A DNA stretch of 64,000 nt, from NCBI GenBank assembly GCA_000002445.1, contig CH464491.1:4000001-4064000 (forward strand). The letters run 5' to 3'. This document shows positions 42,414 to 58,293 of the stretch, one piece after another (the stretch's first letter is position 1; each line of letters begins with the position of its first letter). The DNA comes from Trypanosoma brucei. Its lineage: Eukaryota. The notes under the pieces are model-generated. The model made no database searches, was not told the origin of the DNA, and was given only the letters and a program-made list of their open reading frames with translations. The position numbers and the translations under genes are program-made.

Positions 42414-45400
42414 TTATCCTATGAATTTAAGTCTCAACTCGCGCCGTTGCTTCTTCTTGAACGGCCCTTGCCGTCCTTCCGCAGCAGCTTCTACAGTGGT
42501 ACCTTCTTCAACGGGGCCAAATTTAGCCCCGCAACCGCTGGGTGTCACGCCAAATGGATTAGTATAGCCATCAAACTTTTCGTCGCTGCGACCATTCACT
42601 GTTGCGTTATCGCGGGACTTAATCGGTGTGGAAACATCTTCCCCATCTCTACTGGATAATAAAAACGGTAGCTGCGGTAAAGTTGCAGCGTCCAACGTAA
42701 CTGGAGGCCTGACTTCTTGCTGTTTACGATATTTACTAAGAAGTACCGAAGAAGCAATGCCAGCCCCACCATCTACTGAACAGGATGAGCTCAATGGAGT
42801 ATCAGCAGTGGCTGTAAGCTTCTGACCGATACCACAAAGCGTCTTCCTTGAGTCGTTCACAAGGAGGAAACACGCCTCAAAAATGGGAGCGTCACAAACG
42901 TTAAGGGGTAACGACCTCAGCAAGCAGTACTGAAGTTTCTGCAAAGCTACAGTTAACTTTGCAACAGTGAAACCCGTCAGTTTCCCCCAAGCATCGAAGC
43001 GTTGGGAATACCACGAGCAAAGAGACGCCACTACCAAGATATTGTGGCGTAGCGCTTCAACGACCTCAACCAGCCGCCTGCTCTCTTCATCCCATACAGC
43101 TGTAAATGAAATCGCTCTTTGAAGTCCAACACCAACAACATCGCAAAGAGCCTTCAAGGGTCCAAAGGAAAACGGCAACTCGGGCGCAGAGCATTTAGAT
43201 TTCGACGTCACGGGAGAATAAAATTTATCATCAACAGATAATTTCGCACCTGGAACAATACCTAACTTTTTTGTAACATTCTGGATAAACAACATACGCT
43301 GCTGAGAAAGCACAACAGCATCCGATACGTCAAATTCAAACGAACGCAACTTGTCAAGCACGTTACGAACACCAACACGCAGTTGCTTCGCAACAGAACC
43401 ACGACGAAAAGACGACACAGCAGGGCAACCAACCAAAGAGAAAACGCCACGATCAGAACAAGAAAACTGACTAAAAACAGTATTCACCAACTGTTCTTCA
43501 TCCGAACAAAAGGATATTTTCATATCATCCACAAATAAACGACGAGACATATCAACAACATCAACATCAACTTCGCAACAGTACTGTTCCTTCCCTATAT
43601 CCACCAAACGCGTTACGCACATTTCAGACGCCTGTACACGTTCACGCTCATTTTGTAATTCAGTACGAAGTGATTCCACCTCATGGGTGTATCGAACACG
43701 CTGTTCCTCCATAGCTATCTCAAGAGTTGAAAGTTGTTCCCGATGCAATTTCTCCATACCTTCATGGTTCTCTTGTACAACTTTCTCAGACGCCTGTACA
43801 CGTTCACGCTCATTTTGTAATTCAGTACGAAGTGATTCCACCTCATGGGTGTATCGAACACGCTGTTCCTCCATAGCTATCTCAAGAGTTAAAAGTTGTT
43901 CCCGATGCAATTTCTCCATACCTTCATGGTTCTCTTGTACAACTTTCTCAGACGCCTGTACACGTTCACGCTCATTTTGTAATTCAGTACGAAGTGATTC
44001 CACCTCATGGGTGTATCGAACACGCTGTTCCTCCATAGCTATTTCAAGAGCTAAAAGTTGTTCCCGATGCAATTTCTCCATACCTTCATGGTTCTCTTGT
44101 GCAACTTTCTCAGACGCCTGTACACGTTCACGCTCATTTTGTAATTCAGTACGAAGTGATTCCACCTCATGGGTGTATCGAACACGCTGTTCCTCCATAG
44201 CTATTTCAAGAGTTGAAAGTTGTTCCCGATGCAATTTCTCCATACCTTCATGGTTCTCTTGTGCAACTTTCTCAGACGCCTGTACACGTTCACGCTCATT
44301 TTGTAATTCAGTACGAAGTGATTCCACCTCATGGGTGTATCGAACACGCTGTTCCTCCATAGCTATTTCAAGAGTTGAAAGTTGTTCCCGATGCAATTTC
44401 TCCATACCTTCATGGTTCTCTTGTGCAACTTTCTCAGACGCCTGTACACGTTCACGCTCATTTTGTAATTCAGTACGAAGTGATTCCACCTCATGGGTGT
44501 ATCGAACACGCTGTTCCTCCATAGCTATTTCAAGAGCTAAAAGTTGTTCCCGATGCAATTTCTCCATACCTTCATGGTTCTCTTGTGCAACTTTCTCAGA
44601 CGCCTGTACACGTTCACGCTCATTTTGTAATTCAGTACGAAGTGATTCCACCTCATGGGTGTATCGAACACGCTGTTCCTCCATAGCTATTTCAAGAGCT
44701 AAAAGTTGTTCCCGATGCAATTTCTCCATACCTTCATGGTTCTCTTGTGCAACTTTCTCAGACGCCTGTACACGTTCACGCTCATTTTGTAATTCAGTAC
44801 GAAGTGATTCCACCTCATGGGTGTATCGAACACGCTGTTCCTCCATAGCTATTTCAAGAGTTGAAAGTTGTTCCCGATGCAATTTCTCCATACCTTCATG
44901 GTTCTCTTGTGCAACTTTCTCAGACGCCTGTACACGTTCACGCTCATTTTGTAATTCAGTACGAAGTGATTCCACCTCATGGGTGTATCGAACACGCTGT
45001 TCCTCCATGGCTATTTCAAGAGCTAAAAGTTGTTCCCGATGCAATTTCTCCATACCTTCATGGTTCTCTTGTGCAACTTTCTCAGACGCCTGTACACGTT
45101 CACGCTCATTTTGTAATTCAGTACGAAGTGATTCCACCTCATGGGTGTATCGAACACGCTGTTCCTCCATAGCTATTTCAAGAGTTGAAAGTTGTTCCCG
45201 ATGCAATTTCTCCATACCTTCATGGTTCTCTTGTGCAACTTTCTCAGACGCCTGTACACGTTCACGCTCATTTTGTAATTCAGTACGAAGTGATTCCACC
45301 TCATGGGTGTATCGAACACGCTGTTCCTCCATAGCTATTTCAAGAGCTAAAAGTTGTTCCCGATGCAATTTCTCCATACCTTCATGGTTCTCTTGTGCAA

Positions 45401-48400
45401 CTTTCTCAGACGCCTGTACACGTTCACGCTCATTTTGTAATTCAGTACGAAGTGATTCCACCTCATGGGTGTATCGAACACGCTGTTCCTCCATAGCTAT
45501 TTCAAGAGCTAAAAGTTGTTCCCGATGCAATTTCTCCATACCTTCATGGTTCTCTTGTGCAACTTTCTCAGACGCCTGTACACGTTCACGCTCATTTTGT
45601 AATTCAGTACGAAGTGATTCCACCTCATGGGTGTATCGAACACGCTGTTCCTCCATAGCTATTTCAAGAGCTAAAAGTTGTTCCCGATGCAATTTCTCCA
45701 TACCTTCATGGTTCTCTTGTGCAACTTTCTCAGACGCCTGTACACGTTCACGCTCATTTTGTAATTCAGTACGAAGTGATTCCACCTCATGGGTGTATCG
45801 AACACGCTGTTCCTCCATAGCTATTTCAAGAGTTGAAAGTTGTTCCCGATGCAATTTCTCCATACCTTCATGGTTCTCTTGTGCAACTTTCTCAGACGCC
45901 TGTACACGTTCACGCTCATTTTGTAATTCAGTACGAAGTGATTCCACCTCATGGGTGTATCGAACACGCTGTTCCTCCATAGCTATTTCAAGAGCTAAAA
46001 GTTGTTCCCGATGCAATTTCTCCATACCTTCATGGTTCTCTTGTGCAACTTTCTCAGACGCCTGTACACGTTCACGCTCATTTTGTAATTCAGTACGAAG
46101 TGATTCCACCTCATGGGTGTATCGAACACGCTGTTCCTCCATAGCTATTTCAAGAGTTGAAAGTTGTTCCCGATGCAATTTCTCCATACCTTCATGGTTC
46201 TCTTGTGCAACTTTCTCAGACGCCTGTACACGTTCACGCTCATTTTGTAATTCAGTACGAAGTGATTCCACCTCATGGGTGTATCGAACACGCTGTTCCT
46301 CCATAGCTATTTCAAGAGCTAAAAGTTGTTCCCGATGCAATTTCTCCATACCTTCATGGTTCTCTTGTGCAACTTTCTCAGACGCCTGTACACGTTCACG
46401 CTCATTTTGTAATTCAGTACGAAGTGATTCCACCTCATGGGTGTATCGAACACGCTGTTCCTCCATAGCTATTTCAAGAGTTGAAAGTTGTTCCCGATGC
46501 AATTTCTCCATACCTTCATGGTTCTCTTGTGCAACTTTCTCAGACGCCTGTACACGTTCACGCTCATTTTGTAATTCAGTACGAAGTGATTCCACCTCAT
46601 GGGTGTATCGAACACGCTGTTCCTCCATAGCTATTTCAAGAGCTAAAAGTTGTTCCCGATGCAATTTCTCCATACCTTCATGGTTCTCTTGTGCAACTTT
46701 CTCAGACGCCTGTACACGTTCACGCTCATTTTGTAATTCAGTACGAAGTGATTCCACCTCATGGGTGTATCGAACACGCTGTTCCTCCATAGCTATTTCA
46801 AGAGCTAAAAGTTGTTCCCGATGCAATTTCTCCATACCTTCATGGTTCTCTTGTACAACTTTCTCAGACGCCTGTACACGTTCACGCTCATTTTGTAATT
46901 CAGTACGAAGTGATTCCACCTCATGGGTGTATCGAACACGCTGTTCCTCCATAGCTATTTCAAGAGCTAAAAGTTGTTCCCGATGCAATTTCTCCATACC
47001 TTCATGGTTCTCTTGTGCAACTTTCTCAGACGCCTGTACACGTTCACGCTCATTTTGTAATTCAGTACGAAGTGATTCCACCTCATGGGTGTATCGAACA
47101 CGCTGTTCCTCCATAGCTATTTCAAGAGCTAAAAGTTGTTCCCGATGCAATTTCTCCATACCTTCATGGTTCTCTTGTGCAACTTTCTCAGACGCCTGTA
47201 CACGTTCACGCTCATTTTGTAATTCAGTACGAAGTGATTCCACCTCATGGGTGTATCGAACACGCTGTTCCTCCATAGCTATTTCAAGAGCTAAAAGTTG
47301 TTCCCGATGCAATTTCTCCATACCTTCATGGTTCTCTTGTGCAACTTTCTCAGACGCCTGTACACGTTCACGCTCATTTTGTAATTCAGTACGAAGTGAT
47401 TCCACCTCATGGGTGTATCGAACACGCTGTTCCTCCATAGCTATTTCAAGAGCTAAAAGTTGTTCCCGATGCAATTTCTCCATACCTTCATGGTTCTCTT
47501 GTGCAACTTTCTCAGACGCCTGTACACGTTCACGCTCATTTTGTAATTCAGTACGAAGTGATTCCACCTCATGGGTGTATCGAACACGCTGTTCCTCCAT
47601 AGCTATTTCAAGAGCTAAAAGTTGTTCCCGATGCAATTTCTCCATACCTTCATGGTTCTCTTGTGCAACTTTCTCAGACGCCTGTACACGTTCACGCTCA
47701 TTTTGTAATTCAGTACGAAGTGATTCCACCTCATGGGTGTATCGAACACGCTGTTCCTCCATAGCTATTTCAAGAGTTGAAAGTTGTTCCCGATGCAATT
47801 TCTCCATACCTTCATGGTTCTCTTGTGCAACTTTCTCAGACGCCTGTACACGTTCACGCTCATTTTGTAATTCAGTACGAAGTGATTCCACCTCATGGGT
47901 GTATCGAACACGCTGTTCCTCCATAGCTATTTCAAGAGCTAAAAGTTGTTCCCGATGCAATTTCTCCATACCTTCATGGTTCTCTTGTGCAACTTTCTCA
48001 GACGCCTGTACACGTTCACGCTCATTTTGTAATTCAGTACGAAGTGATTCCACCTCATGGGTGTATCGAACACGCTGTTCCTCCATAGCTATTTCAAGAG
48101 CTAAAAGTTGTTCCCGATGCAATTTCTCCATACCTTCATGGTTCTCTTGTGCAACTTTCTCAGACGCCTGTACACGTTCACGCTCATTTTGTAATTCAGT
48201 ACGAAGTGATTCCACCTCATGGGTGTATCGAACACGCTGTTCCTCCATAGCTATTTCAAGAGTTGAAAGTTTTTCTTTATATTTTTTTTGTTCATTTTGT
48301 TTTTTCGTATTTAAGTTTTCAATGTGTTTATGGTGTTGCTGCTCTTTTGCCTTAATGATGTTTGAAAGTTCCTGTTCCCTTTCGCACTGTGCCGCTAATG

Positions 48401-49295
48401 TTAGTTTCATTGCTATTATTTGTTCTTGGTGGCTTGTTTGAATATCTGCGAGAGTTAGAGTGCCTTGTTTGACTTCTGCGGCTTCCGTATTTTGTATCAT
48501 GTCTCTTAGTGTTTGATGCAGTATCTTTATGTTTTCTCGTAAAGCTGCCTGTTCTTCTTTGTCTATATTATTTTCTTTTATTTTTATTTCTCGTAAACGT
48601 CGTTCGTACTCTTCTTTGGTTTTTGTCATTTCTATTTCCTTTTCTTGTAGTGTGAGTTGAGATTGTTGTAGCTGTGTTGTGGATCGTTGAAGTTTCCTTT
48701 CATGTTCGTGTAGTGCTGCCTTTAATGCACTATTTTCCTGTTGTATTCTTTCGTGTTCATTTTGCAGGATTGCCGTTAGTTGTGAATTTTCTTCATAGTT
48801 TTGAAGCTTTTGTCGGACGCTTTCTAGTTCCTTTACCGTGCTATCGCGCTCACACTTCGTTTTGTGGAATTCTTCTCGCAAGTGTTCAAGGTTAACATCT
48901 GTGTCTTTATAAGTAGTAAAACCCTGCTGCATTGTGTGCGGAGAAAGCGTGTGATCCATTGCGTCTGTCTCGCTAGGTGCTGAGCTGCCAGCGGTGCTCT
49001 CTGGAGCAAGTCCCTCTCGGCGCTTGTAATAATAAATTATGGTACGCCACAGCTTAGCGATGCGGTTTGCCGTTGCAGCTGCTTTGGGTGAGCCGTTAGG
49101 TAACGAAAGGTACGCTGTCAGTGATGTCAGCGCCATGTAAATATCGGCCATGGCTTCTGGTAAGTCATGCGCAGCGCTGCTTGTGAGTTTGTACTGTGCA
49201 TCCCTAAGCGAATTTCCAATTCGCGCTTCTATAGTCCTTCGACTGCCTTCGATATCGCTCGTGTTTTCTATTAACTGAGCGTCCTTGAAACTCAT
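42414..49295 (-). CDS. Giant repetitive protein (2293 aa): K/E-rich coiled-coil N-terminus, ~28.7 tandem 54-aa repeats, ~400-aa non-repetitive C-terminal domain
   Basis: Uninterrupted 6.9-kb ORF. Central array of 162-bp units encodes 'LEIAMEEQRVRYTHEVESLRTELQNERERVQASEKV(A/V)QENHEGMEKLHREQL(LA/ST)'. Units are >99% identical, with only 3-4 variable nucleotide positions. Confidence 0.85.
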   Translation of the reverse strand: MSFKDAQLIENTSDIEGSRRTIEARIGNSLRDAQYKLTSSAAHDLPEAMADIYMALTSLTAYLSLPNGSPKAAATANRIAKLWRTIIYYYKRREGLAPESTAGSSAPSETDAMDHTLSPHTMQQGFTTYKDTDVNLEHLREEFHKTKCERDSTVKELESVRQKLQNYEENSQLTAILQNEHERIQQENSALKAALHEHERKLQRSTTQLQQSQLTLQEKEIEMTKTKEEYERRLREIKIKENNIDKEEQAALRENIKILHQTLRDMIQNTEAAEVKQGTLTLADIQTSHQEQIIAMKLTLAAQCEREQELSNIIKAKEQQHHKHIENLNTKKQNEQKKYKEKLSTLEIAMEEQRVRYTHEVESLRTELQNERERVQASEKVAQENHEGMEKLHREQLLALEIAMEEQRVRYTHEVESLRTELQNERERVQASEKVAQENHEGMEKLHREQLLALEIAMEEQRVRYTHEVESLRTELQNERERVQASEKVAQENHEGMEKLHREQLSTLEIAMEEQRVRYTHEVESLRTELQNERERVQASEKVAQENHEGMEKLHREQLLALEIAMEEQRVRYTHEVESLRTELQNERERVQASEKVAQENHEGMEKLHREQLLALEIAMEEQRVRYTHEVESLRTELQNERERVQASEKVAQENHEGMEKLHREQLLALEIAMEEQRVRYTHEVESLRTELQNERERVQASEKVAQENHEGMEKLHREQLLALEIAMEEQRVRYTHEVESLRTELQNERERVQASEKVAQENHEGMEKLHREQLLALEIAMEEQRVRYTHEVESLRTELQNERERVQASEKVVQENHEGMEKLHREQLLALEIAMEEQRVRYTHEVESLRTELQNERERVQASEKVAQENHEGMEKLHREQLLALEIAMEEQRVRYTHEVESLRTELQNERERVQASEKVAQENHEGMEKLHREQLSTLEIAMEEQRVRYTHEVESLRTELQNERERVQASEKVAQENHEGMEKLHREQLLALEIAMEEQRVRYTHEVESLRTELQNERERVQASEKVAQENHEGMEKLHREQLSTLEIAMEEQRVRYTHEVESLRTELQNERERVQASEKVAQENHEGMEKLHREQLLALEIAMEEQRVRYTHEVESLRTELQNERERVQASEKVAQENHEGMEKLHREQLSTLEIAMEEQRVRYTHEVESLRTELQNERERVQASEKVAQENHEGMEKLHREQLLALEIAMEEQRVRYTHEVESLRTELQNERERVQASEKVAQENHEGMEKLHREQLLALEIAMEEQRVRYTHEVESLRTELQNERERVQASEKVAQENHEGMEKLHREQLLALEIAMEEQRVRYTHEVESLRTELQNERERVQASEKVAQENHEGMEKLHREQLSTLEIAMEEQRVRYTHEVESLRTELQNERERVQASEKVAQENHEGMEKLHREQLLALEIAMEEQRVRYTHEVESLRTELQNERERVQASEKVAQENHEGMEKLHREQLSTLEIAMEEQRVRYTHEVESLRTELQNERERVQASEKVAQENHEGMEKLHREQLLALEIAMEEQRVRYTHEVESLRTELQNERERVQASEKVAQENHEGMEKLHREQLLALEIAMEEQRVRYTHEVESLRTELQNERERVQASEKVAQENHEGMEKLHREQLSTLEIAMEEQRVRYTHEVESLRTELQNERERVQASEKVAQENHEGMEKLHREQLSTLEIAMEEQRVRYTHEVESLRTELQNERERVQASEKVAQENHEGMEKLHREQLLALEIAMEEQRVRYTHEVESLRTELQNERERVQASEKVVQENHEGMEKLHREQLLTLEIAMEEQRVRYTHEVESLRTELQNERERVQASEKVVQENHEGMEKLHREQLSTLEIAMEEQRVRYTHEVESLRTELQNERERVQASEMCVTRLVDIGKEQYCCEVDVDVVDMSRRLFVDDMKISFCSDEEQLVNTVFSQFSCSDRGVFSLVGCPAVSSFRRGSVAKQLRVGVRNVLDKLRSFEFDVSDAVVLSQQRMLFIQNVTKKLGIVPGAKLSVDDKFYSPVTSKSKCSAPELPFSFGPLKALCDVVGVGLQRAISFTAVWDEESRRLVEVVEALRHNILVVASLCSWYSQRFDAWGKLTGFTVAKLTVALQKLQYCLLRSLPLNVCDAPIFEACFLLVNDSRKTLCGIGQKLTATADTPLSSSCSVDGGAGIASSVLLSKYRKQQEVRPPVTLDAATLPQLPFLLSSRDGEDVSTPIKSRDNATVNGRSDEKFDGYTNPFGVTPSGCGAKFGPVEEGTTVEAAAEGRQGPFKKKQRRELRLKFIG
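43627..48270 (-). repeat. Coding tandem repeat: 162-bp unit x ~28.7 copies (54-aa protein repeat), two interspersed variant classes
   Basis: The unit beginning 'gacgcctgtacacgttcacgctcattttgtaattcagtacgaagtgattccacctcatggg...' recurs with exact 162-bp spacing from 43627 to 48163; the last copy is partial. Variants: 'agttgaaag' vs 'agctaaaag'; 'tgtgcaac' vs 'tgtacaac'; 'ctatctc' vs 'ctatttc'. Confidence 0.95.
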
Positions 49296-50112: not shown

Positions 50113-52359
50113 TTAAGACTTCGGAAAAGCCATTCCAACAAATTGCCCATCTTCTGTCCACTGTTTTTTTGTTTTCTGTGCCTCGTAGTACCTCTTCGCC
50201 TCCATCCGACGTTTGTTCAGGGACTTTAACTTCCCCTTAACATACTCCTGCTGCTTCTCTTCCACGGAGCTGCTTGGGAGTGAGACACTCGGCACCGCTG
50301 ATAGGGCAAAGCTCCGCGCCAGTCCCTCCAAGTCTAGCCGGTGAACGTTGAATATGTTTTGAAGGAGGTGACTCTGGTATGCGCCCACGTGAGCTCGGAA
50401 CGCACTTACGGAACTCTTCGCCACGATGGGATCCAACTGCAGTACGTGTTCCAACTTCATCTGGATGGGGGGGAGCTTGGCTGGCATTGGGTACTTTTCA
50501 AGTGAAATACCAAACTTTGAGAGGTAACGCACAAAGCCCGCCTCCTCAGGAGTCAGAAACAGTAACGCATTACCGACATTACCAGCGCGAGCTGTGCGCC
50601 CAATGCGATGCACGTATTCTGTGGGGTCAAGAGGGGGATCGTACTGCAGAATCCACTCCACATCCGGAATATCTAAACCGCGAGCGGCAACGTCGGTACA
50701 AAGCAGCACGCCGGTTGTCCATTCATTGAACGCTTGAAATGCCGCCACGCGCTGGCGGTGCTTCATTTGTCCATGCAGCATTATCACTTCATTATGGAAC
50801 CCAACGGATCCCAACATTTGAAAGTGAAATATAGTGCTGGCCACCGTAGAGCAGAACACCATCGCCTTCGATGTGCGGGCAACGCGCTTGACAAACGCGT
50901 ACAAGCAGAGTAAGCGTTCATGCACAGGGGTAATGTGGCAGAACTGTCGAAGAGTGTCCGGAATGGGTTTGATGTCACCTCCCGCCTCATTGCCACCAGT
51001 GTCTGACGCTCGCCCTCTTTTAAGCTGGTCATCAACATCCGGATCATCATAAGAGCAGTACGGTGGAAAGGTGGCAGATGCAGCATCAACACAACCCGCA
51101 GCTACCGCAGAATCAAAAGCTTCGGTACCTAATTGTACCGGAATCGGGGCACTGCCTGTTGTCGTGATGAAGAGTGGCTTGCGAGAAAGCGAAAGCCGGG
51201 CCAACTCCCCAATAGACTTCGAGTTAGTTGCTGAAAACAAATACGTCTGACGGGAGCGCGGCAGTCGCTGAACAATGGCATCAAGGCTTCTCTGAAAACC
51301 GTCGGCCAGCATTCGGTCTGCTTCGTCCAGAACGAGAGCGCGTAGCCGGGAGAGATCCCACCCCGAGCAATGCTGAACATGGTCATGTATACGTCCCGGC
51401 GTTCCAACCACTATGGAAACGCCTGAGTTAAGTTGCCGCCGTTCCTCTGACACTTTTGTACCCCCAGTAATGAGGTGTACGGAAAACGCAGCAATATCAC
51501 TAGAAATGTGTTGACATATCCCCCTCAGCACATCATGTGTTTGTACGCACAGCTCTTTGGTGGGGGAAAGCATTAAACTGTACGTGACATTCGGCCGCTT
51601 ACTTACGAGACCGATGATGGAATGAAGCACCGGCACACAGAAGGCTAGTGTTTTCCCTGAACCAGTCTGCGCCTGACCGAGGAGATCGTAGCCCTGAAGG
51701 GCATAGGGTATAACTCGCTCCTGAATGGGTGTCATTCGGCAAAATCCCTCCTGCTGAAGTGCTTGAACAACGTTTTCATTAACCCCAATAAGCGGGTGGT
51801 TAAATCGTGCACCAGTCTCAACCTTCTTTCGTACCCTACGAACTCTGGCTTCATCATCCAAAACTTCAGTGATGTTGCTAAGTCTCGTACCTGCCTTCGC
51901 ACCCCCAGTGTTGAAAAGGGTCTGGAAATCCTCTTCATTGTCAAAATGATGCAACAGCAACTTATCCGTCTCAGAAGCAGTGTCTTTCTGTCCTTCCCTG
52001 CTCCTTGTCTTTCGAAGATGTGTTGTGCGGCGATTGGCGTGTTCTTCTGCGAGGCGGTCGAGATACTCCGTGTCTTGCATGTTGTACAATTCTGTTTTCT
52101 TAATAAGCAACTTACCGTGAGGACCTACCGGTGGGCGAAACGGGCCACTTCCCATCACCATTACATCATCGGCGCCGGAGTCGACTTCTTCCTCCCCTTC
52201 TTCCACGTACTCGTTGTCCAATCCTGCCTTGCCATTGGCAGCTTTTGCCTCTCGCTCCCGTTGGCGCTTCCTACGACCCTTGATGCCCATTTGGTTGCGA
52301 CACCCCCGCACTTTACACACGTTTCCCTTGTGTGTTTGATATTTCAATGCGGTATGCAC
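50113..52359 (-). CDS. ATP-dependent DEAD-box RNA helicase (748 aa) with N-terminal extension and basic C-terminal tail
   Basis: Motif I 'AQTGSGKTLAF', Ia 'PTKELCVQT', 'GTPGRIHDHV', II 'VLDEADRML', III 'SAT', VI 'HRIGRTARAG'. C-terminal Lys/Arg-rich tail with a Cys-containing segment (CKVRGCRNQ). Confidence 0.9.
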   Translation of the reverse strand: MHTALKYQTHKGNVCKVRGCRNQMGIKGRRKRQREREAKAANGKAGLDNEYVEEGEEEVDSGADDVMVMGSGPFRPPVGPHGKLLIKKTELYNMQDTEYLDRLAEEHANRRTTHLRKTRSREGQKDTASETDKLLLHHFDNEEDFQTLFNTGGAKAGTRLSNITEVLDDEARVRRVRKKVETGARFNHPLIGVNENVVQALQQEGFCRMTPIQERVIPYALQGYDLLGQAQTGSGKTLAFCVPVLHSIIGLVSKRPNVTYSLMLSPTKELCVQTHDVLRGICQHISSDIAAFSVHLITGGTKVSEERRQLNSGVSIVVGTPGRIHDHVQHCSGWDLSRLRALVLDEADRMLADGFQRSLDAIVQRLPRSRQTYLFSATNSKSIGELARLSLSRKPLFITTTGSAPIPVQLGTEAFDSAVAAGCVDAASATFPPYCSYDDPDVDDQLKRGRASDTGGNEAGGDIKPIPDTLRQFCHITPVHERLLCLYAFVKRVARTSKAMVFCSTVASTIFHFQMLGSVGFHNEVIMLHGQMKHRQRVAAFQAFNEWTTGVLLCTDVAARGLDIPDVEWILQYDPPLDPTEYVHRIGRTARAGNVGNALLFLTPEEAGFVRYLSKFGISLEKYPMPAKLPPIQMKLEHVLQLDPIVAKSSVSAFRAHVGAYQSHLLQNIFNVHRLDLEGLARSFALSAVPSVSLPSSSVEEKQQEYVKGKLKSLNKRRMEAKRYYEAQKTKKQWTEDGQFVGMAFPKS

Positions 52360-52667
52360 TTTACCGCCCTACCTGCCCCAGTAGGCCTAACCTCATTATT
52401 GCGAATGTTGCAAGTGAGTGGATGGATCAAGGGAAAGAAAAATGCACGTAACAACATACAAGTAGAGGTCGTAAAGACTAAATTTATCCAATCACTAATT
52501 ACTACATCCATTTATGCGCCTGTCTGTATGGCTCTCGCGAAACAAGTATCTATGAACACCCCATGTGAAGAAATCAGCAGTATATCCACGCAACCACCAT
52601 CCACACTTCCCGTGGAAAGCACGCAATCCCTACAAGATCTCGTTGTCACACACCAACCCTAACGTAA

Positions 52668-54665
52668 TCAACAGGATGCCAGGTTGCTCCGACACGCAGT
52701 TACCGTAGCGTTTGCGTTAGAAGCGCTACGGCCACCGATATCCCTTGAAGAGCACTTGCCCTTATCATTTGCCTGGACCACGAAGAGGCGCGGATACAGT
52801 ACTCCAGTTTTCATGGCCATTCCTTTCCGCAATAACCCTGCTGACTGCTTGCGTGACCCCTCCAACACAACAGCATTCCATAGGAACCAACCTACACGAC
52901 ACTTGACAGCACATATGTCCTCCGCCGACTTGGGGAAGTAAGCGCTGCCTGCCTCAATAAAGCTTTCCGTGGTGGGGGCGTTTGAGCCACAGTCGCCACA
53001 GTCATGCAAGTTCCGAAAATGCGTGACAGTCCCCTGCTCCAATCGCTGAAGCTCCCATTGGACAGCGCTGGGGGTGCCTTGAGGGTAAACAGCATCCGTG
53101 AAGGTACACCTAACGAGAAGACGGTGGCGGAAATGGTCATGAGACCCAGCATCCTCGGCATCGTCTACTTTTTCTGACGGTTTGCTGCTGGCCACTGTGA
53201 TGTCTTTTCGCTGAACTGCGTTACCTCCCTCGTCCGTCCCACCGCCGCCATGCCCATCTCTCTGCTGTTCCTTCGGAAGTCCCTCATTGCACCTTTCTCC
53301 GCTGAGTTGATCACCGCGGTGCCACACCGTTTGTTTCTCTAGTTCGCATACCGTACGGGACAACAGCCGTTTTATTAGTTGTCCTCGCACGGGGGTCGCA
53401 CCCTTGTCTAACGTGGCGTTGATGGTTGGACTGAAGTACTCACCCCCAACAAACGCTCTCCAGATTCCGTAGGCCTCGTCCGCGGTGACTTTGTGCCAGT
53501 AAATAACGGCTGATTCTCTTTTCAGAAGAGGCGCATGCCACGGATCTTTTGTGAAGTGGAGGTCGTGCCCTTGCTTCCACGCCGCATTCCACAATGCATT
53601 GAATGTCCGTGGCCAATCACAGTAGCCACTGGCTACTGCTGGGCCGAGATGAAGACATCCTGGAGGTGAGCTGAGTGCAGGCGCAACAGGGACCTTACCA
53701 AATAGGCACTCGCAGAGCGCTTCCGCGCCCTGCTCAGTCACGCTGGGAAAGTACTCTCGGATGGTCATCTCCGGTGGTATTGGTATAGTTCGCTGAAGCA
53801 ACACATCTCCGCCATCCATAAACATCCCTCTCGGTGGAAGTTTGATAACGCTAACACCACCCTTGTCGTCCCCCCGAAGCAGCGGAGCAAAGATAGGACT
53901 TGCGCCACGATACCGCGGCAACAAAGAGGGATGCAAATTGACGGTGAATCTCAATTTCTCAAGTAGTTTGTTCGGCAGGAAGTACCGAAACGACACCACG
54001 ACTGCTACATCAAACATCTCCAGGGGTCGCCCCGCGATGTGATCGACTTGCGCCACACCGCTAATGACAGGCGTTGGCAAATGCTTGGGATGCAGCAGGT
54101 ATTCCAGTGTTTTACTTTTCGCCATAGACGTCGGGTGGTCAACAGGCACTAAGGGTATGCCGTGCTCTACACAGTATCGCGCCACGGGGTATTGACGCCT
54201 GTACTGTTTGAACACTGTGAAAGGATCGGCAGGAAGGAAGGGACAAACAACCACAAGTTGGGATTTCTCGCTACCGGTTGCCGCGCTGCACCCTTTTTCC
54301 TGAAGGGGACGAGCATCCATGATTAGCTGAAGGCGGTTGTGAAGAGCCTTCAAAGCTACTAGCGAGACAATATCACCACCGAAGAAAATGATGGAAGGGG
54401 GTTTGGACATTCCGCAAACAGTAAAAGCACAGTTCGGCGTACCCCTCGTTTTATCGCCATTGCCGGTGATCGTGACCTGCTCGACACATCCCACCATAGT
54501 GGAGGGGGCGGGTGGATCGGTGGTGCTGCTTCTCGATCGACGATTTACCAGAAAGGAAGAAATGTGGCTCCAGAAACAAGCTCTTGCCACACTATGTCCA
54601 CACCTCGATATGCACTGCCGCATGCGTGAAGGCACTGATCCGACGCCTGTTGCCGCCTTCCACAC
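52668..54665 (-). CDS. Methionyl-tRNA formyltransferase (Fmt)-like protein with long N- and C-terminal extensions (665 aa maximal ORF)
   Basis: Formyl-transferase N-terminal fold 'PPSIIFFGGDIVSLVALKALH' and active-site region 'NLHPSLLPRYRGASPIFAPLLRGDDKGGVSVIKL' (SLLPxxRGxxPI motif of Fmt / formyl_trans_N). These are followed by a Fmt C-terminal-like domain and ~250 extra residues. The first ~85 codons may be upstream of the real start (MVGCVEQ... or MSKPPS...). Confidence 0.8.
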   Translation of the reverse strand: MWKAATGVGSVPSRMRQCISRCGHSVARACFWSHISSFLVNRRSRSSTTDPPAPSTMVGCVEQVTITGNGDKTRGTPNCAFTVCGMSKPPSIIFFGGDIVSLVALKALHNRLQLIMDARPLQEKGCSAATGSEKSQLVVVCPFLPADPFTVFKQYRRQYPVARYCVEHGIPLVPVDHPTSMAKSKTLEYLLHPKHLPTPVISGVAQVDHIAGRPLEMFDVAVVVSFRYFLPNKLLEKLRFTVNLHPSLLPRYRGASPIFAPLLRGDDKGGVSVIKLPPRGMFMDGGDVLLQRTIPIPPEMTIREYFPSVTEQGAEALCECLFGKVPVAPALSSPPGCLHLGPAVASGYCDWPRTFNALWNAAWKQGHDLHFTKDPWHAPLLKRESAVIYWHKVTADEAYGIWRAFVGGEYFSPTINATLDKGATPVRGQLIKRLLSRTVCELEKQTVWHRGDQLSGERCNEGLPKEQQRDGHGGGGTDEGGNAVQRKDITVASSKPSEKVDDAEDAGSHDHFRHRLLVRCTFTDAVYPQGTPSAVQWELQRLEQGTVTHFRNLHDCGDCGSNAPTTESFIEAGSAYFPKSAEDICAVKCRVGWFLWNAVVLEGSRKQSAGLLRKGMAMKTGVLYPRLFVVQANDKGKCSSRDIGGRSASNANATVTACRSNLASC

Positions 54666-55015
54666 CTTTCTCGGTAGAATTCAGTAGTTAAAAAAACAGC
54701 GCACGGAATTAGGTGGAATTATCATGAAAGTGCGCCACAGCTGCACTGTTTTCCCTCTTCAGATAAGGCTGAAGTGTTGGCCAACCCCTACGCTATAACA
54801 ATAACAACATAAAGCAAGCGGAACGCATTAGGCGAAAAGGTGGTGGTGACCACATTCTCACATTTACCGAACAGCGAGCTTGCTAACAAAGATATAGGGC
54901 CGTCTCGGTTCCGGTGCAAGCGGGACACAACCCACCTTTCGATCACGGCCGCCCGCAGCGGCGATGGAAAAGTGGTTGGTCACTTTCCTACCCACATCAA
55001 CACGAGAAAATGAAA

Positions 55016-55100
55016 TATGATTACTTAATAATAATAATAATATAAAAATAATAATATAATAATATAATAATAATAACGACAATAATGATTGTAATAATTG
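55016..55100. repeat. AAT/ATA-rich low-complexity tract
   Basis: 'aataataataataatataaaaataataatataataatataataataataacgacaataatgattgtaataattgtggtaataaa' in the spacer upstream (5') of the Fmt gene. Confidence 0.85.
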
Positions 55101-55235
55101 TGGTAATAAAATGAAAAGAGGTAGCACAAAATACTCCCTTCTTTGATAATTGAAAAACCTGGGTATGCACAAGAGCACACACCGACGCTCGCGTCCCGAC
55201 GCGAAGAAAGCGAACAGAGAAACAAAACGGAGTTA

Positions 55236-55865
55236 TTAAGCTTTTTCTTCGGCAGCACCGTCCCCCTCGTCCGCTTTGCCCTCGTTTTCTTCATCGGAAT
55301 CGTCTGCATCGGACAACTTGCCATCCTTCTTAGCCAACTCCCACCACGATGTCTCTTCAGCCTTTGCCAGTCGGATCACAATCTGCCCACTCGGGTCCTT
55401 GACTTTGTAGCTGCTTTCTTTGCTCTTTATTGCCTTTGCCAAACAAAGAACAAGTTGTTTCCTTCGCTGCGTTGCGACATCCTTCGAGGTCTGCACATTC
55501 GCAATGTACGACACTGTCAAACGGCGTTTTCCGAATTCCACCTGTAGCGTGTCTTCCACCATTGTTTCTTTTTCATCCAGTTTTGTGTCAATGTATACCG
55601 TAACATTCTTCTTACCGTCACACCAGCTGTGCTTCGTGATCGGATAACTTGCTGTGGAAGCTGGCAACACCGATGGGTCGGACTTCTTCAGCAAAACAGG
55701 TTTCGGCATAGGCGCAACATCGCCTACCTTCGCTCGTTCTTTCTCGTGGTTATGCCAGTAATAATAGGAGTTAGCTTGCTTCTTCTTAGCTGCGGAGTCG
55801 TGCTGCTCATTTTGGGTAGGTGGAATGGCTTCAGTGCCAGCCACTGCCTCCGTATCGGCCATCAC
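55236..55865 (-). CDS. CS-domain (p23/NudC/Sgt1-like HSP20-fold) protein with acidic C-terminal tail (209 aa)
   Basis: 'YPITKHSWCDGKKNVTVYID' and the terminal '...IVIRLAKAEETSWWELAKK' match the CS-domain pattern (Y.W.Q...V.V.I ... K....WW..L). The acidic tail DADDSDEENEGKADEGD is as in p23 co-chaperones. Confidence 0.6.
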   Translation of the reverse strand: MMADTEAVAGTEAIPPTQNEQHDSAAKKKQANSYYYWHNHEKERAKVGDVAPMPKPVLLKKSDPSVLPASTASYPITKHSWCDGKKNVTVYIDTKLDEKETMVEDTLQVEFGKRRLTVSYIANVQTSKDVATQRRKQLVLCLAKAIKSKESSYKVKDPSGQIVIRLAKAEETSWWELAKKDGKLSDADDSDEENEGKADEGDGAAEEKA

Positions 55866-56136: not shown

Positions 56137-58293
56137 CTACCAGTCATCCCACTCCTCCCCCTCATCATCAACTAGTATATCTGCCTTGGCTTTCACAATG
56201 CGTGATTTACCAACAACAGAGCCCGCATCCTGCCTATCAGAAGGAGCAGCTACACTCTCCAAGCGAGCAACAATACTAGGATTTTCGGAGTGGTCACTCT
56301 CGTCTTCATCAACGAAACTAACTGAGGTAGAAACTATATACTTTTGGTAGACAGTAAGATATTCATCTGCTTGCTTCCGGCAAACGATGCTCCTACAAAC
56401 TCCTTCCTCATGCTCAAGAACCGCAAAAAGCTTAGAAAAATGGGGTGAGTGCCCACAGCATGCTTCCTCCTCAGCTCTGAGACGTGCTTCCTCTTCAGCT
56501 CTGAGACGTGCTTCCTCCTCAGCTCTCAGACGTGCTTCCTCCTCAGCTCTGAGACGTGCTTCCTCTTCAGCTCTCAGACGTGCTTCCTCTTCAGCTCTCA
56601 GACGTGCTTCCTCTTCAGCTCTCAGACGTGCTTCCTCTTCAGCTCTCAGACGTGCTTCCTCTTCAGCTCTCAGACGTGCTTCCTCTTCAGCTCTCAGACG
56701 TGCTTCCTCTTCAGCTCTGAGACGTGCTTCCTCCTCAGCTCTGAGACGTGCTTCCTCTTCAGCTCTCAGACGTGCTTCCTCTTCAGCTCTCAGACGTGCT
56801 TCCTCCTCAGCTCTGAGACGTGCTTCCTCTTCAGCTCTGAGACGTGCTTCCTCTTCAGCTCTGAGACGTGCTTCCTCTTCAGCTCTCAGACGTGCTTCCT
56901 CTTCAGCTCTCAGACGTGCTTCCTCTTCAGCTCTGAGACGTGCTTCCTCTTCAGCTCTCAGACGTGCTTCCTCCTCAGCTCTGAGACGTGCTTCCTCTTC
57001 AGCTCTGAGACGTGCTTCCTCTTCAGCTCTCAGACGTGCTTCCTCTTCAGCTCTGAGACGTGCTTCCTCTTCAGCTCTGAGACGTGCTTCCTCCTCAGCT
57101 CTCAGACGTGCTTCCTCTTCAGCTCTCAGACGTGCTTCCTCTTCAGCTCTCAGACGTGCTTCCTCTTCAGCTCTCAGACGTGCTTCCTCTTCAGCTCTCA
57201 GACGTGCTTCCTCTTCAGCTCTGAGACGTGCTTCCTCCTCAGCTCTGAGACGTGCTTCCTCTTCAGCTCTCAGACGTGCTTCCTCTTCAGCTCTCAGACG
57301 TGCTTCCTCTTCAGCTCTCAGGTGTGTCTCTTCCTCGGAGTTATCTGACGTCTTGCAAATCCTAATAAGATGCTCTTTACCATCGTGTTGTCTCATTTTC
57401 CCTTTCTTAGCAGGTGTGTCACTTTCGTTAATTCGAGGATGGAGTTTGCCGCTGCTGGTGCTTATTTTATTTGTGCATTCATTTTGTACGTATTCTCCTG
57501 TGTGAACTCTGCTTTCCTGTGTGCATTGAGCGTGTAGCAAGCTACTGTTTTTGTTTCCTGTGGGTTGAGCCTCTGATCCTATAATGCGATGCTTCGCGGT
57601 CTTATCGTTATTCTGGTCGTGCTGATGTGCGAACTCGCTAGGGATGTCGTTGCCCACTTGGTTAATAAGGTCGTACTTTTCCTCTCTCAACAGCGTTCCA
57701 ATCTTTTTTACAGTTCCCATATCCGCTGTACATGTTTCCCAAATGCTGTTTATGCGCTGTTGAAGATGAACGATGTTCTCTACATTTATCAACCCAGGTT
57801 GCACTTTGTACTCCTCGAAGATCAATTCACACTTGCGGAGACGCTGATCCACGGCATCTTCCCACCAGGTGTAGACGCTGAGAAAGTCACTTGTATGCGT
57901 TATTTTTTCCTCTAGGCTTAATTGAAGGAGGAACTGCGCCTCTCCGTGGATACGTTTGGAAGTGAGAGTTATAAGACTGACAGACTCCGTAATGTATCGA
58001 AACAATTCTTCTGGTTCCAGAGATGTACGCTTTTCTTCCGCAAGACATAAAAGTGGTGGCGGTTTTTCATATTCGCCAGCCAGTTCGGCACTGCCAGCGC
58101 CAGAGTCGAGTACAACAGGGGATGATGTGAGTTTGTTCATCCAACCGACGACGTGCTCCTCGAGGAGGGAAAACCCCGAGCTCATTGCTGCACTTCGTTG
58201 CTGTTTCTGTTCAGGTGCAGCGGCGAGCTCGTCTCGCGTTGGGGCAACCGTGCGCCGAGCCGCGTTCTTTATGTCTATTAAAAAGTTCCACAT
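56137..58293 (-). CDS. Repetitive charged protein (718 aa) with ~36 tandem 8-aa 'EEARLRAE' repeats (predicted ER/K single alpha-helix) flanked by unique N- and C-terminal domains
   Basis: Uninterrupted ORF. Central 24-bp-periodic array encodes (EEARLRAE)n with only synonymous unit variants. Flanking domains are non-repetitive. Confidence 0.8.
56461..57324 (-). repeat. Coding tandem repeat: 24-bp unit 'tgcttcctc(t/c)tcagctct(c/g)agacg' x ~36 (8-aa EEARLRAE)
   Basis: Exact 24-bp periodicity visible over ~860 bp. Only two synonymous polymorphic positions per unit. Confidence 0.95.

What the first reader, a model, noticed from the sequence alone, without database searches (positions are those of the whole stretch)
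56137..58293. Protein with ~36 tandem 'EEARLRAE' octads: predicted ER/K single alpha-helix (SAH) spacer
The 24-bp unit repeats ~36 times (56461-57324) with only synonymous variation. An 8-residue period is not a heptad, so a classical coiled coil is unlikely. Alternating blocks of Glu and Arg with i to i+4 spacing ([16 protein letters not shown]) are the defining feature of ER/K single alpha-helix domains, known from myosin-10, caldesmon and Kelch-motif proteins. Such a domain forms a rigid ~40-nm spacer between the unique N- and C-terminal domains. The N-terminal domain (57330-58293) and C-terminal domain (56137-56440) are unique and have no recognisable fold.
Basis: partly seen in the sequence, partly recalled or inferred. 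Interest (0 to 1): 0.65.

Follow-up and report, generated by a model that had tools for sequence, protein, structure and literature searches.

The report
Known trypanosome Tb-291 octad-repeat protein
This is the already described Trypanosoma brucei membrane-associated protein Tb-291, named in 1994 for this same EARLRAEE repeat; the repeat probably forms one very long charged helix that acts as a flexible spacer, but that reading is plausible rather than proven.

Summary
A 718-aa minus-strand ORF (56137-58293) holds 35 perfect LRAEEEAR octads plus a partial unit (24-bp period, 35.9 copies), and only two synonymous sites vary. It is not new. The protein is 100% identical to T. brucei TREU927 "Tb-291 membrane associated protein" (XP_829607.1), described by Lee et al. 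1994 (JBC 269:8408) for its "internal EARLRAEE amino acid repeat". Its Leishmania orthologue (Lci8) is a known serodiagnostic repeat antigen.

The single-alpha-helix (SAH) reading is partly supported:
- There is no heptad seam (a/d hydrophobic occupancy 0.25, against 0.88 in real coiled coils).
- Each octad has six opposite-charge i+3/i+4 pairs and no like-charge pairs.
- AlphaFold2 models one continuous 294-residue helix.

Three points weaken it. The segment is only 62.5% charged, has Arg and no Lys (Arg-only designs aggregated experimentally), and scores below validated SAH designs. "Rigid 40 nm" is also overstated: the contour is ~44 nm and the rms span ~30 nm.

Orthologues across trypanosomatids keep an E/R/A-rich array at the same position, but with periods of 8, 9, 10 and 11/21/30 residues. 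They also share an N-terminal three-helix bundle and an acidic C-terminal di-Trp motif, so the flanks are not featureless. Interest is low to moderate.

The parts
56137..58293 (-). Tb-291 coding sequence (718 aa plus stop codon at 56137-56139)
   Evidence: ORF list. 100% identical to XP_829607.1/EAN80495.1/UniProt Q381N6, 'Tb-291 membrane associated protein, putative', T. brucei brucei TREU927.
58243..58293 (-). Conserved N-terminal 17-mer [17 protein letters not shown] (aa 1-17), a candidate amphipathic membrane-binding helix
   Evidence: M1, W2, R13 and P18 are invariant in 10 orthologues. Hydrophobic moment is 0.37-0.52, at the 74th-99th percentile within each protein. Modelled as helix 2-16 at low pLDDT. 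The membrane role is inferred, not shown.
57649..58062 (-). Conserved N-terminal core domain (aa 78-215), predicted antiparallel three-helix bundle
57340..57642 (-). Non-conserved, predicted disordered linker (aa 218-318)
   Evidence: pLDDT ~30 and no secondary structure. Not alignable between orthologues.
56458..57339 (-). Predicted continuous alpha-helix (aa 319-612, 294 residues, contour ~44 nm) containing the octad array
   Evidence: One DSSP helix H319-612 in the AF2 model, pLDDT 67-96 with a dip to 51-61 at aa 431-450. SAH-type metrics.
56461..57321 (-). 24-bp tandem array: 35 perfect LRAEEEAR units (56482-57321) plus a partial unit
   Evidence: TRF period 24, 35.9 copies, score 1561. 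Unit census and the two synonymous variable sites.
56314..56427 (-). Post-repeat helix (aa 623-660), weakly conserved (..LE.EE....R....R.Q.....)
   Evidence: AF2 helix 623-660, pLDDT 50-65. Alignment A2, with R30 and R35 invariant.
56140..56313 (-). Disordered acidic C-terminal tail (aa 661-718)
   Evidence: pLDDT 33-41 and no secondary structure.
56140..56166 (-). C-terminal acidic di-tryptophan motif [13 protein letters not shown] (aa 710-718)
   Evidence: All full-length family members end in acidic W-x(2-3)-W: EEWDDW, EEWGDW, KWDDDW, NWDDDW. Coordinates checked by translation.

Best explanation
The locus is the known Trypanosoma brucei gene Tb-291. It belongs to a trypanosomatid-specific family annotated as 'membrane associated' or 'vesicular transport-associated repeat' proteins.

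Shown here: the protein has no transmembrane segment. From N to C it consists of (i) an invariant MW-initiated amphipathic N-terminal peptide and a conserved three-helix bundle, (ii) a ~100-residue disordered linker, (iii) a ~294-residue uninterrupted helix encoded by 36 EARLRAEE octads, and (iv) a short helix and an acidic disordered tail ending in a di-Trp motif.

Inferred: the octad array forms a largely monomeric, salt-bridge-stabilised single alpha-helix (SAH-like). It acts as an extended, semi-flexible spacer (contour ~44 nm, rms span ~30 nm), not a rigid rod, and holds the C-terminal acidic W motif away from the N-terminal module, which sits on or near a membrane. What is selected is the physical character of the segment (long, helical, charged), not its sequence or period. 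The array turns over by unequal recombination, so unit length and copy number differ between species and strains.
For: Identity:
- 100% match to XP_829607.1.
- Lee et al. 1994 described Tb-291 and Tb-292 as membrane-associated proteins with an internal EARLRAEE repeat (title cited in PMC5619722 ref 33 and PMC1538635 ref B13).
- PMC5619722 calls Tb-291 'possibly involved with vesicular transport'.

Helix without a seam:
- Zero hydrophobic power at period 3.5; a/d positions hold 12.5% Leu in every register; best 28-residue a/d occupancy is 0.25, against 0.88 for GCN4 and tropomyosin.
- Each octad has 4 i/i+4 and 2 i/i+3 opposite-charge pairs and no like-charge pairs.
- No Pro, Gly or beta-branched residues; mean helix-propensity penalty 0.23 kcal/mol.
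- AF2 gives one continuous helix, 319-612, with pLDDT up to 96.
- Published proteome-wide SAH predictions note that kinetoplastid SAH domains are unusually Arg- and Ala-rich, which matches this composition (PMC5812594).

Spacer role:
- Orthologues from T. grayi, T. vivax, T. theileri, T. cruzi, Lotmaria, Porcisia and Leishmania all have an E/R/A-rich array at the same position. Periods are 8, 9, 10 and 11/21/30, and lengths range from 128 to 346 residues.
- L. infantum Lci8 has 61 x 10 residues.
- T. b. equiperdum has 37 units against 35 here.
- All four combinations of the two variable sites occur, which implies exchange between units.
- The flanks are conserved: N-domain, terminal di-Trp motif. 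No TM-grade segment exists (max 19-residue Kyte-Doolittle mean <=1.38).
Against: - The octad is a weaker SAH candidate than the validated cases. It is 62.5% charged against 86-100%, with pair score 0.55 against 0.93-1.15.
- It uses only Arg, and Arg-only AEEERRR polypeptides aggregated instead of forming soluble SAHs (PMC5347031).
- Three of eight positions are apolar (A, A, L). [quoted passage not shown]
- Net charge is about -35.
- A rough Zimm-Bragg estimate puts it below AEEEKKK under every assumption, and between 0.04 and 0.91 helicity at 37 C (parameters recalled from memory).
- Leishmania-clade arrays score lower still (0.16-0.29) and have 11/21-residue periods that a coiled coil could accommodate.
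- A monomer AF2 model cannot distinguish an SAH from a helix that needs a partner.
- No localisation, interaction or biophysical data could be retrieved. Lee et al. 1994 is not held in the library.
Confidence: 0.55

Rival explanations
1. The array is helical but not monomeric. The helices self-associate laterally into staggered dimers or bundles, or bind another protein, driven by Arg-Glu cross-bridges and the Ala/Leu positions. The repeat would then be an oligomerisation or scaffold element rather than a free single helix.
For: Arg-only designed E/R repeats aggregated (PMC5347031). The Waggawagga-CLI paper reports that AEEEXXX peptides aggregated with three or more Ala positions per heptad, and three of eight positions here are apolar. 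A 4-residue stagger would put EEE blocks opposite R-L-R blocks (inference from the sequence). Porcisia, Lotmaria and Leptomonas arrays have 11/21/30-residue periods, with a/d occupancy up to 0.5, or 0.67 counting Ala. Isolated-helix stability is marginal in the helix-coil estimate.
Against: T. brucei has no continuous hydrophobic stripe: power 0.0 at 3.5 and <=0.04 at 3.43-3.75 residues per turn, and Leu rotates 80 degrees per octad. An 8-residue period would need 4.0 residues per turn, outside coiled-coil geometry (established coiled-coil theory). A net charge of about -35 per chain opposes in-register pairing.
Confidence: 0.22
2. The array is a fast-evolving, largely neutral low-complexity expansion: a polyampholyte that is only partly helical or disordered in vivo. 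It has no specific mechanical role and is tolerated between two functional ends.
For: Near-identical DNA units indicate recent expansion or homogenisation. Copy number and unit sequence differ between T. brucei subspecies. Period and sequence are not conserved between species. The helix-coil estimate allows low helicity at 37 C if salt bridges contribute little. Tandem-repeat proteins are common in trypanosomatids; another 28 x 54-aa array lies in the same window.
Against: An E/R/A(L/Q)-rich array sits at the same position in every orthologue recovered, across Trypanosoma and the Leishmaniinae, despite complete turnover of the unit. This argues that composition and presence are under selection. 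The array has no Pro, Gly or Ser-rich content, unlike the truly disordered linker at 218-318. AF2 confidence in the helix reaches 96.
Confidence: 0.15
3. The selected function of the repeat is immunological: a repetitive, immunodominant B-cell epitope acting as a decoy or 'smokescreen' antigen.
For: The L. infantum orthologue Lci8 and the Tb-292 orthologue Lci12 were isolated by screening an expression library with sera from visceral leishmaniasis patients, and they consist mostly of these repeats (PMC5619722).
Against: The protein has no signal peptide or TM segment, and the literature describes it as associated with intracellular membranes, so exposure to antibody would follow parasite lysis. 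The family is also present in the monoxenous insect parasites Lotmaria and Leptomonas, which never meet antibody (host range from general knowledge). Antigenicity is more likely a by-product of repetitiveness.
Confidence: 0.05

Closest known systems
Tb-291 / Tb-292 of Trypanosoma brucei (Lee, Russell, D'Alesandro & Van der Ploeg 1994, J Biol Chem 269:8408-8415)
   Same: It is this protein: 100% identity to the TREU927 entry annotated Tb-291. The paper's title names the same internal EARLRAEE octad.
   Different: Nothing at the sequence level. The single-helix reading, the three-helix-bundle N-domain and the conserved di-Trp C-terminus were not found in any text I could search. The 1994 paper itself could not be read.
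Leishmania infantum Lci8 (LinJ.32.2420) and other 'membrane associated protein-like' or 'vesicular transport-associated repeat' orthologues
   Same: Same architecture: conserved N-domain, then an E/R/A-rich tandem array, then a C-terminal region.
   Different: Unit length and copy number differ: 61 x 10 aa in L. infantum, 9 aa in T. cruzi and T. theileri, 21 aa in Porcisia. The Leishmaniinae have a longer C-terminal region (233-287 aa). T. grayi, Porcisia and Leishmania sp. Ghana carry an extra internal GW(G/D)DDxFEEV motif, with a similar GWDDDDDDGFEEV in Lotmaria, that T. brucei lacks.
ER/K single alpha-helix (SAH) domains: myosin-6 and myosin-10 (the myosins named from general knowledge), and designed AEEEKKK/AEEEKRK polypeptides (PMC5347031)
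   Same: Long helix with no hydrophobic seam, a dense i/i+3 and i/i+4 Glu-to-basic network, and a position between two functional modules.
   Different: Lower charge density (62.5%), Arg only, one Leu and two Ala per unit, net negative charge, and a perfectly periodic octad. At ~294 residues it exceeds the 40-200 residues quoted as typical. Monomeric helicity has not been tested.
Dsl1 'lasso' and ArfGAP tryptophan-based acidic motifs that bind the delta-COP mu-homology domain (ELM LIG_deltaCOP1_diTrp_1); golgin-type long tethers
   Same: Trp-based motif embedded in acidic residues within a disordered region, presented at a distance from a membrane-associated module. Dsl1 exposes its motif ~20 nm above the membrane (PMC7145657 and PMC4868844).
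   Different: This is purely a sequence resemblance, and no binding data exist. Acidic Trp motifs also serve other partners, such as kinesin light chain and AP appendages (from memory). The spacer here would be a single helix rather than a multisubunit complex or a dimeric coiled coil.
Legionella Dot/Icm substrate in PDB 8hcy chain C (octad KLEEEQRI, aa 643-720)
   Same: An 8-residue tandem unit with the same x-h-E-E-E-x-R-h pattern (phmmer E = 5.6e-11) and the same count of charge pairs per octad.
   Different: Bacterial effector with unrelated flanks, so presumably convergent. I could not establish whether or how the repeat is ordered in that structure.

Membership tests
Tb-291 (T. brucei membrane-associated EARLRAEE-repeat protein) | Sequence identity to the annotated Tb-291 protein | tested here: met
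   100% identity over 718 aa to XP_829607.1/EAN80495.1.
Tb-291 (T. brucei membrane-associated EARLRAEE-repeat protein) | Internal tandem EARLRAEE octad repeat | tested here: met
   35 perfect units plus a partial one. The repeat is named in the title of Lee et al. 1994.
Tb-291 (T. brucei membrane-associated EARLRAEE-repeat protein) | Association with intracellular membranes or vesicles | not testable with these tools
   [quoted passage not shown] No TM segment was found, so any association must be peripheral.
ER/K-type single alpha-helix (SAH) domain | Sequence dominated by Glu plus Lys/Arg | tested here: inconclusive
   62.5% charged (E 37.5%, R 25%, K 0%), against 86% in validated AEEEKKK/AEEEKRK designs and 100% in E4K4. 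Kinetoplastid predicted SAHs are reported to be Arg- and Ala-rich.
ER/K-type single alpha-helix (SAH) domain | Dense opposite-charge pairs at i/i+3 and i/i+4, few like-charge pairs | tested here: met
   4 (i+4) plus 2 (i+3) attractive pairs and no repulsive pairs per octad. Pair score 0.55, against 0.08-0.12 for coiled coils and 0.93 for designs.
ER/K-type single alpha-helix (SAH) domain | No hydrophobic seam | tested here: met
   Power 0.0 at period 3.5; a/d occupancy equals bulk composition; Leu rotates 80 degrees per octad.
ER/K-type single alpha-helix (SAH) domain | Monomeric and highly helical in solution, with a weakly cooperative melt | not testable with these tools
   Needs CD and AUC or SEC-MALS. 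AF2 predicts a continuous helix. The helix-coil estimate is inconclusive. Arg-only designs aggregated.
Canonical alpha-helical coiled coil | Heptad or hendecad periodicity with apolar a/d core positions | tested here: not met
No spectral power at 3.43-3.75 residues per turn.
delta-COP-binding di-Trp motif (ELM LIG_deltaCOP1_diTrp_1) | Trp-based motif flanked by acidic residues in a disordered region | tested here: met
   [13 protein letters not shown] lies in a tail with pLDDT 33-41 and is conserved as W-x(2-3)-W in all five full-length members. The class is described in PMC7145657. The exact regular expression was recalled, not read.
delta-COP-binding di-Trp motif (ELM LIG_deltaCOP1_diTrp_1) | Physical binding to the delta-COP mu-homology domain | not testable with these tools
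   No interaction data were found.
Pfam DUF2345 (PF10106) | Genuine homology across the domain rather than a compositional match | tested here: not met
   The hit (E 1.1e-12, 48.4 bits) lies wholly inside the octad array (best stretch aa 429-488), as three stretches covering profile positions 40-111 of 151. DUF2345 is a bacterial family. I treat it as a low-complexity false positive.

The most novel reading that the evidence does not exclude
The Tb-291 family is a kinetoplastid-specific 'single-helix tether'. A peripheral membrane anchor (an invariant MW-initiated amphipathic helix plus a three-helix bundle) carries a monomeric SAH of lineage-tunable length: about 20 nm in T. grayi, 44 nm in T. 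brucei and about 90 nm in L. infantum. The SAH presents a C-terminal acidic di-Trp motif that captures a vesicle coat, such as the COPI delta-COP mu-homology domain. This would be a functional analogue of the Dsl1 lasso or of golgins, built from a single helix instead of a coiled coil.
Probability: 0.12. Interest if true: 0.6.

Novelty: already known. Interest (0 to 1): 0.25.

Why it matters
As it stands, the finding re-discovers a protein that was named for this repeat in 1994 and whose Leishmania orthologue is used as a serodiagnostic antigen. The repeat itself is therefore not news.

What this analysis adds is modest:
- A testable structural hypothesis: at ~294 residues this would be an unusually long, Arg-only, perfectly periodic SAH, and so a clean natural test of whether E/R-only helices can stay monomeric.
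- A family-level architecture: a conserved three-helix bundle, a helical array of variable period, and a conserved acidic di-Trp terminus. This suggests a spacer or tether role in trypanosomatid membrane traffic.

If confirmed, the variation in length between species would be a natural experiment on how spacer length is tuned.

Tried and rejected
1. Pfam scan of the whole protein. The only hits were DUF2345 and Cornifin, both inside the repeat. Rejected as compositional artefacts.
2. Word-indexed protein search with the repeat removed found only the protein itself. The search with the repeat alone found only a 107-aa metagenomic fragment, not even the source protein, and did not recover Tb-292.
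3. Literature searches returned nothing for EEARLRAE, for the accessions Q381N6/XP_829607/EAN80495, for 'vesicular transport-associated repeat protein' and for PDB 8hcy. The LinJ.32.2420 search gave no functional data. Lee et al. 1994 and Suckling et al. 2015 are not held. I could not obtain the TriTrypDB gene ID or any TrypTag-type localisation.
4. Fold search of the N-domain returned only generic three-helix bundles, so no functional assignment. Fold search of the full-length model had no match at E<=0.001. AFDB50 was unavailable.
5. Model coordinates are not exposed, so I could not measure helix straightness or self-contacts.
6. Di-cysteine (ACCG) palmitoylation right after the array, as a membrane anchor. 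Weakened, because T. b. equiperdum has WC there.
7. The FAZ10 preprint, a T. brucei repetitive protein shown to be a dimeric coiled coil, was read as a cautionary precedent. Its region has canonical heptads, unlike this one.
8. The T. cruzi, T. theileri, Leptomonas and several Leishmania entries are truncated inside the array, so their copy numbers and C-termini are unusable.
Full report
OBSERVATION. The window is a block of long ORFs, all on the minus strand, at about 48% G+C. This is the look of a trypanosomatid polycistronic unit. The ORF 56137..58293 (-) encodes 718 aa. Tandem Repeats Finder reports one array at 56461-57321 with period 24, 35.9 copies, 96% matches, no indels and score 1561. 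Read in frame, there are 35 perfect LRAEEEAR units (aa 325-604, window 56482-57321), preceded by a degenerate unit (EEETH) and followed by a partial unit that runs into ...EEEACCGHS. Only two nucleotide positions vary in the whole array: CTG/CTC (Leu) and GAA/GAG (Glu). Both are synonymous. All four combinations of the two sites occur (19, 9, 5 and 2 units) with no higher-order pattern. That is what unequal exchange or gene conversion between units would produce. The two long + strand ORFs over the array are antisense read-throughs of the repeat.

IDENTITY. A search with the two unique flanks joined, the repeat removed, returned a single hit at 100% identity. It is 'Tb-291 membrane associated protein, putative [Trypanosoma brucei brucei TREU927]' (XP_829607.1, EAN80495.1, UniProt Q381N6), on a 5.26-Mb chromosome. 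[quoted passage not shown] I could verify it only through two citing papers (PMC5619722 ref 33, PMC1538635 ref B13), because the paper itself is not held. [quoted passage not shown] It reports that the L. infantum orthologue Lci8 (LinJ.32.2420) has 61 identical 10-residue repeats flanked by 331 and 242 residues. It also reports that the related Tb-292 orthologue Lci12 has about 30 octads and C-terminal transmembrane segments. Both were isolated as antigens with sera from visceral leishmaniasis patients.

VARIATION WITHIN THE SPECIES. The same 90% cluster holds the T. b. equiperdum protein (RHW67787.1, 734 aa). It has 37 full octads, 8 of which read LRAEEESR. The residues just after the array are WC instead of CC. 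Copy number is thus polymorphic but similar in an independent assembly, and conservative non-synonymous change is tolerated.

THE FAMILY. An exhaustive HMMER scan with the N-terminal 324 residues found nine relatives (E from 2e-39 to 2.5e-15) that match over residues 1 to about 220. They come from T. grayi, T. theileri, T. cruzi, T. vivax, Lotmaria passim, Porcisia hertigi and Leishmania sp. Ghana. A profile search added L. tarentolae, L. donovani, L. braziliensis, Leptomonas pyrrhocoris and Leptomonas seymouri. Sources name them 'membrane associated protein-like', 'Tb-291 membrane-associated protein-like' or 'vesicular transport-associated repeat protein'.

All have the same layout: a conserved N-domain, a non-conserved linker, and an E/R/A-rich tandem array. 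The unit is not conserved:
- EEEARRQA (8 residues) in T. grayi.
- EEEARRRA (8) in T. vivax.
- about 9 residues in T. theileri and T. cruzi.
- EEQARLQREA (10) in Leishmania sp. Ghana.
- 21 residues in Porcisia.
- 30/41/11 residues in Lotmaria.

Many database entries stop inside the array, which is an assembly artefact.

Conserved features are M1, W2, R13 and P18; the motifs FLLSLSLEEQIAHTxDF..CYxWW and GRLLRDERYD (alignment A1); a short helix after the array; and a C-terminus that ends in an acidic W-x(2-3)-W in every full-length member (EEWDDW, EEWGDW, KWDDDW, NWDDDW). A second internal motif, GW(G/D)DDxFEEV, is present in T. grayi, Porcisia and Leishmania sp. Ghana. Lotmaria has a similar GWDDDDDDGFEEV. 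T. brucei lacks it.

IS THE ARRAY A SINGLE ALPHA-HELIX?

For:
- The composition is E 37.5%, R 25%, A 25% and L 12.5%. All are strong helix formers (mean Pace-Scholtz penalty 0.23 kcal/mol, scale from memory).
- Each octad offers four i/i+4 pairs (R2-E6, E4-R8, E6-R10, R8-E12) and two i/i+3 pairs (R2-E5, E5-R8) of opposite charge, and no like-charge pairs.
- Because 7 and 8 are coprime, every heptad register samples the bulk composition, so a/d positions are 62.5% charged and 12.5% Leu. Hydrophobic spectral power is 0.0 at 3.5 and 0.04 or less between 3.43 and 3.75 residues per turn. Successive Leu residues rotate 80 degrees around the helix.
- AlphaFold2 models residues 319-612 as one uninterrupted DSSP helix with pLDDT 67-96.
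- The Waggawagga-CLI survey notes that predicted kinetoplastid SAH domains are unusually rich in Arg and Ala (PMC5812594), which fits this composition.

Against:
- The segment is a diluted ER/K pattern. It is 62.5% charged with pair score 0.55, compared with 86% and 0.93 for the experimentally validated AEEEKKK/AEEEKRK polypeptides, and 1.15 for E4K4.
- It contains no Lys, and the Arg-only design AEEERRR aggregated rather than forming a soluble SAH (PMC5347031).
[quoted passage not shown] Here three of eight positions are apolar.
- The array carries a net charge of about -35.
- A rough Zimm-Bragg estimate (parameters recalled, so only a sensitivity test) puts the octad below AEEEKKK under every assumption. 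Long-chain helicity at 37 C ranges from 0.04 to 0.91 depending on how much of the nominal salt-bridge energy is realised. The T. vivax unit looks stronger and the Leishmania decad weaker.
- A monomer AF2 model cannot tell an SAH from a helix that needs a partner.

My reading is that 'not a canonical coiled coil' is well supported, 'continuous helix' is likely, and 'monomeric SAH' is the best single hypothesis but only moderately probable.

GEOMETRY. But SAHs have a persistence length of about 15 nm, and 40-200 residues is quoted as their typical length (PMC5347031). A worm-like chain with those numbers has an rms end-to-end distance of about 30 nm. The element would be a semi-flexible spacer, not a rigid rod, and would be unusually long for the class.

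FUNCTION (INFERRED). An E/R/A-rich array persists at one position through complete turnover of unit sequence, period (8 to about 30 residues) and length (128-346 residues among the complete entries here, and 610 in L. infantum). This argues that the physical nature of the segment is what matters. It also argues against a sequence-specific binding role. Two conserved ends separated by such a segment suggest a spacer or tether.

[quoted passage not shown] Dsl1 displays its motif about 20 nm above the ER membrane to catch COPI vesicles (PMC4868844). That parallel fits the literature's 'vesicular transport' label. It remains a resemblance only, because acidic Trp motifs have several other known partners (from memory).

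The antigenicity of the Leishmania orthologues is most simply a by-product of repetitiveness. The protein lacks a signal peptide or TM segment, and the family also occurs in the insect-only parasites Lotmaria and Leptomonas.

COMPARISON AND NOVELTY. The protein and its repeat are already known (1994) and annotated. I found no text proposing an SAH for it, so the structural reading may be new, but it is an application of a known concept to a known protein. A curious convergent analogue turned up in the PDB: a Legionella Dot/Icm substrate (8hcy chain C) with KLEEEQRI octads of the same x-h-EEE-x-R-h pattern. I could not find how that repeat is structured. The Pfam DUF2345 hit, which is also precomputed in the public collection, lies entirely within the array and is a compositional false positive.

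VERDICT. Novelty: already known. Interest 0.25. The most novel reading the evidence does not exclude is a kinetoplastid single-helix vesicle tether with a coat-binding di-Trp tip. I give it about 12% probability, and it would be of moderate to high interest if true.

Noticed in passing
window 42414-49295 (-); repeat DNA 43624-48275: A second, larger tandem-repeat gene. It is a 2293-aa ORF with 28 near-identical 54-aa units (162-bp period, 28.7 copies, 99% identity). The unit is HREQLLALEIAMEEQRVRYTHEVESLRTELQNERERVQASEKVAQENHEGMEKL. There is no Pfam family above threshold. A 1584-aa antisense ORF across it is a repeat artefact.
   Followed up: partly
window 56387-57505 (+) and 56449-57348 (+): Long + strand ORFs (372 and 299 aa; SSALRRAS and FSSQTCFL repeats) are antisense read-throughs of the octad array, not genes.
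   Followed up: yes
window 56137-58293 (-), aa 429-488: Pfam DUF2345 (PF10106, a bacterial family) scores above its gathering threshold on the octad array (E 1.1e-12). The public collection also carries this assignment precomputed. It is a low-complexity false positive that could mislead automated annotation.
   Followed up: yes
PDB 8hcy chain C, aa 643-720 (not in the window): A Legionella Dot/Icm secretion substrate carries about 10 KLEEEQRI octads with the same x-h-EEE-x-R-h pattern as the Tb-291 unit (E 5.6e-11). It may be a convergent example of an octad charged helix, in a solved entry. No paper was found.
   Followed up: partly
P0002 (T. b. equiperdum RHW67787.1) versus window aa 611-612: The Cys-Cys pair immediately after the array (EEEACCGHS) is Trp-Cys in T. 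b. equiperdum. That weakens the idea of a di-cysteine palmitoylation anchor.
   Followed up: partly
window 29971-33642 (-): A 1223-aa protein with an N-terminal DUF7914 (E 6e-199) and a C-terminal synaptobrevin/R-SNARE-like segment. It is another membrane-traffic gene in the same transcription unit.
   Followed up: no
window 4787-8269 (-): A 1160-aa protein that combines a FYVE zinc finger with a PI3/PI4-kinase catalytic domain.
   Followed up: no
window 50113-55865 (-): The immediate downstream neighbours of Tb-291 are a small CS-domain protein (55236-55865), a formyltransferase-domain protein (52668-54665) and a DEAD-box/SPB4-like RNA helicase (50113-52359). None has an evident functional link to Tb-291.
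   Followed up: no
full-length AF2 model, aa 431-450 (window about 56944-57003): pLDDT drops to 51-61 in the middle of an otherwise perfectly periodic helix. DSSP still calls it helix.
   Followed up: no
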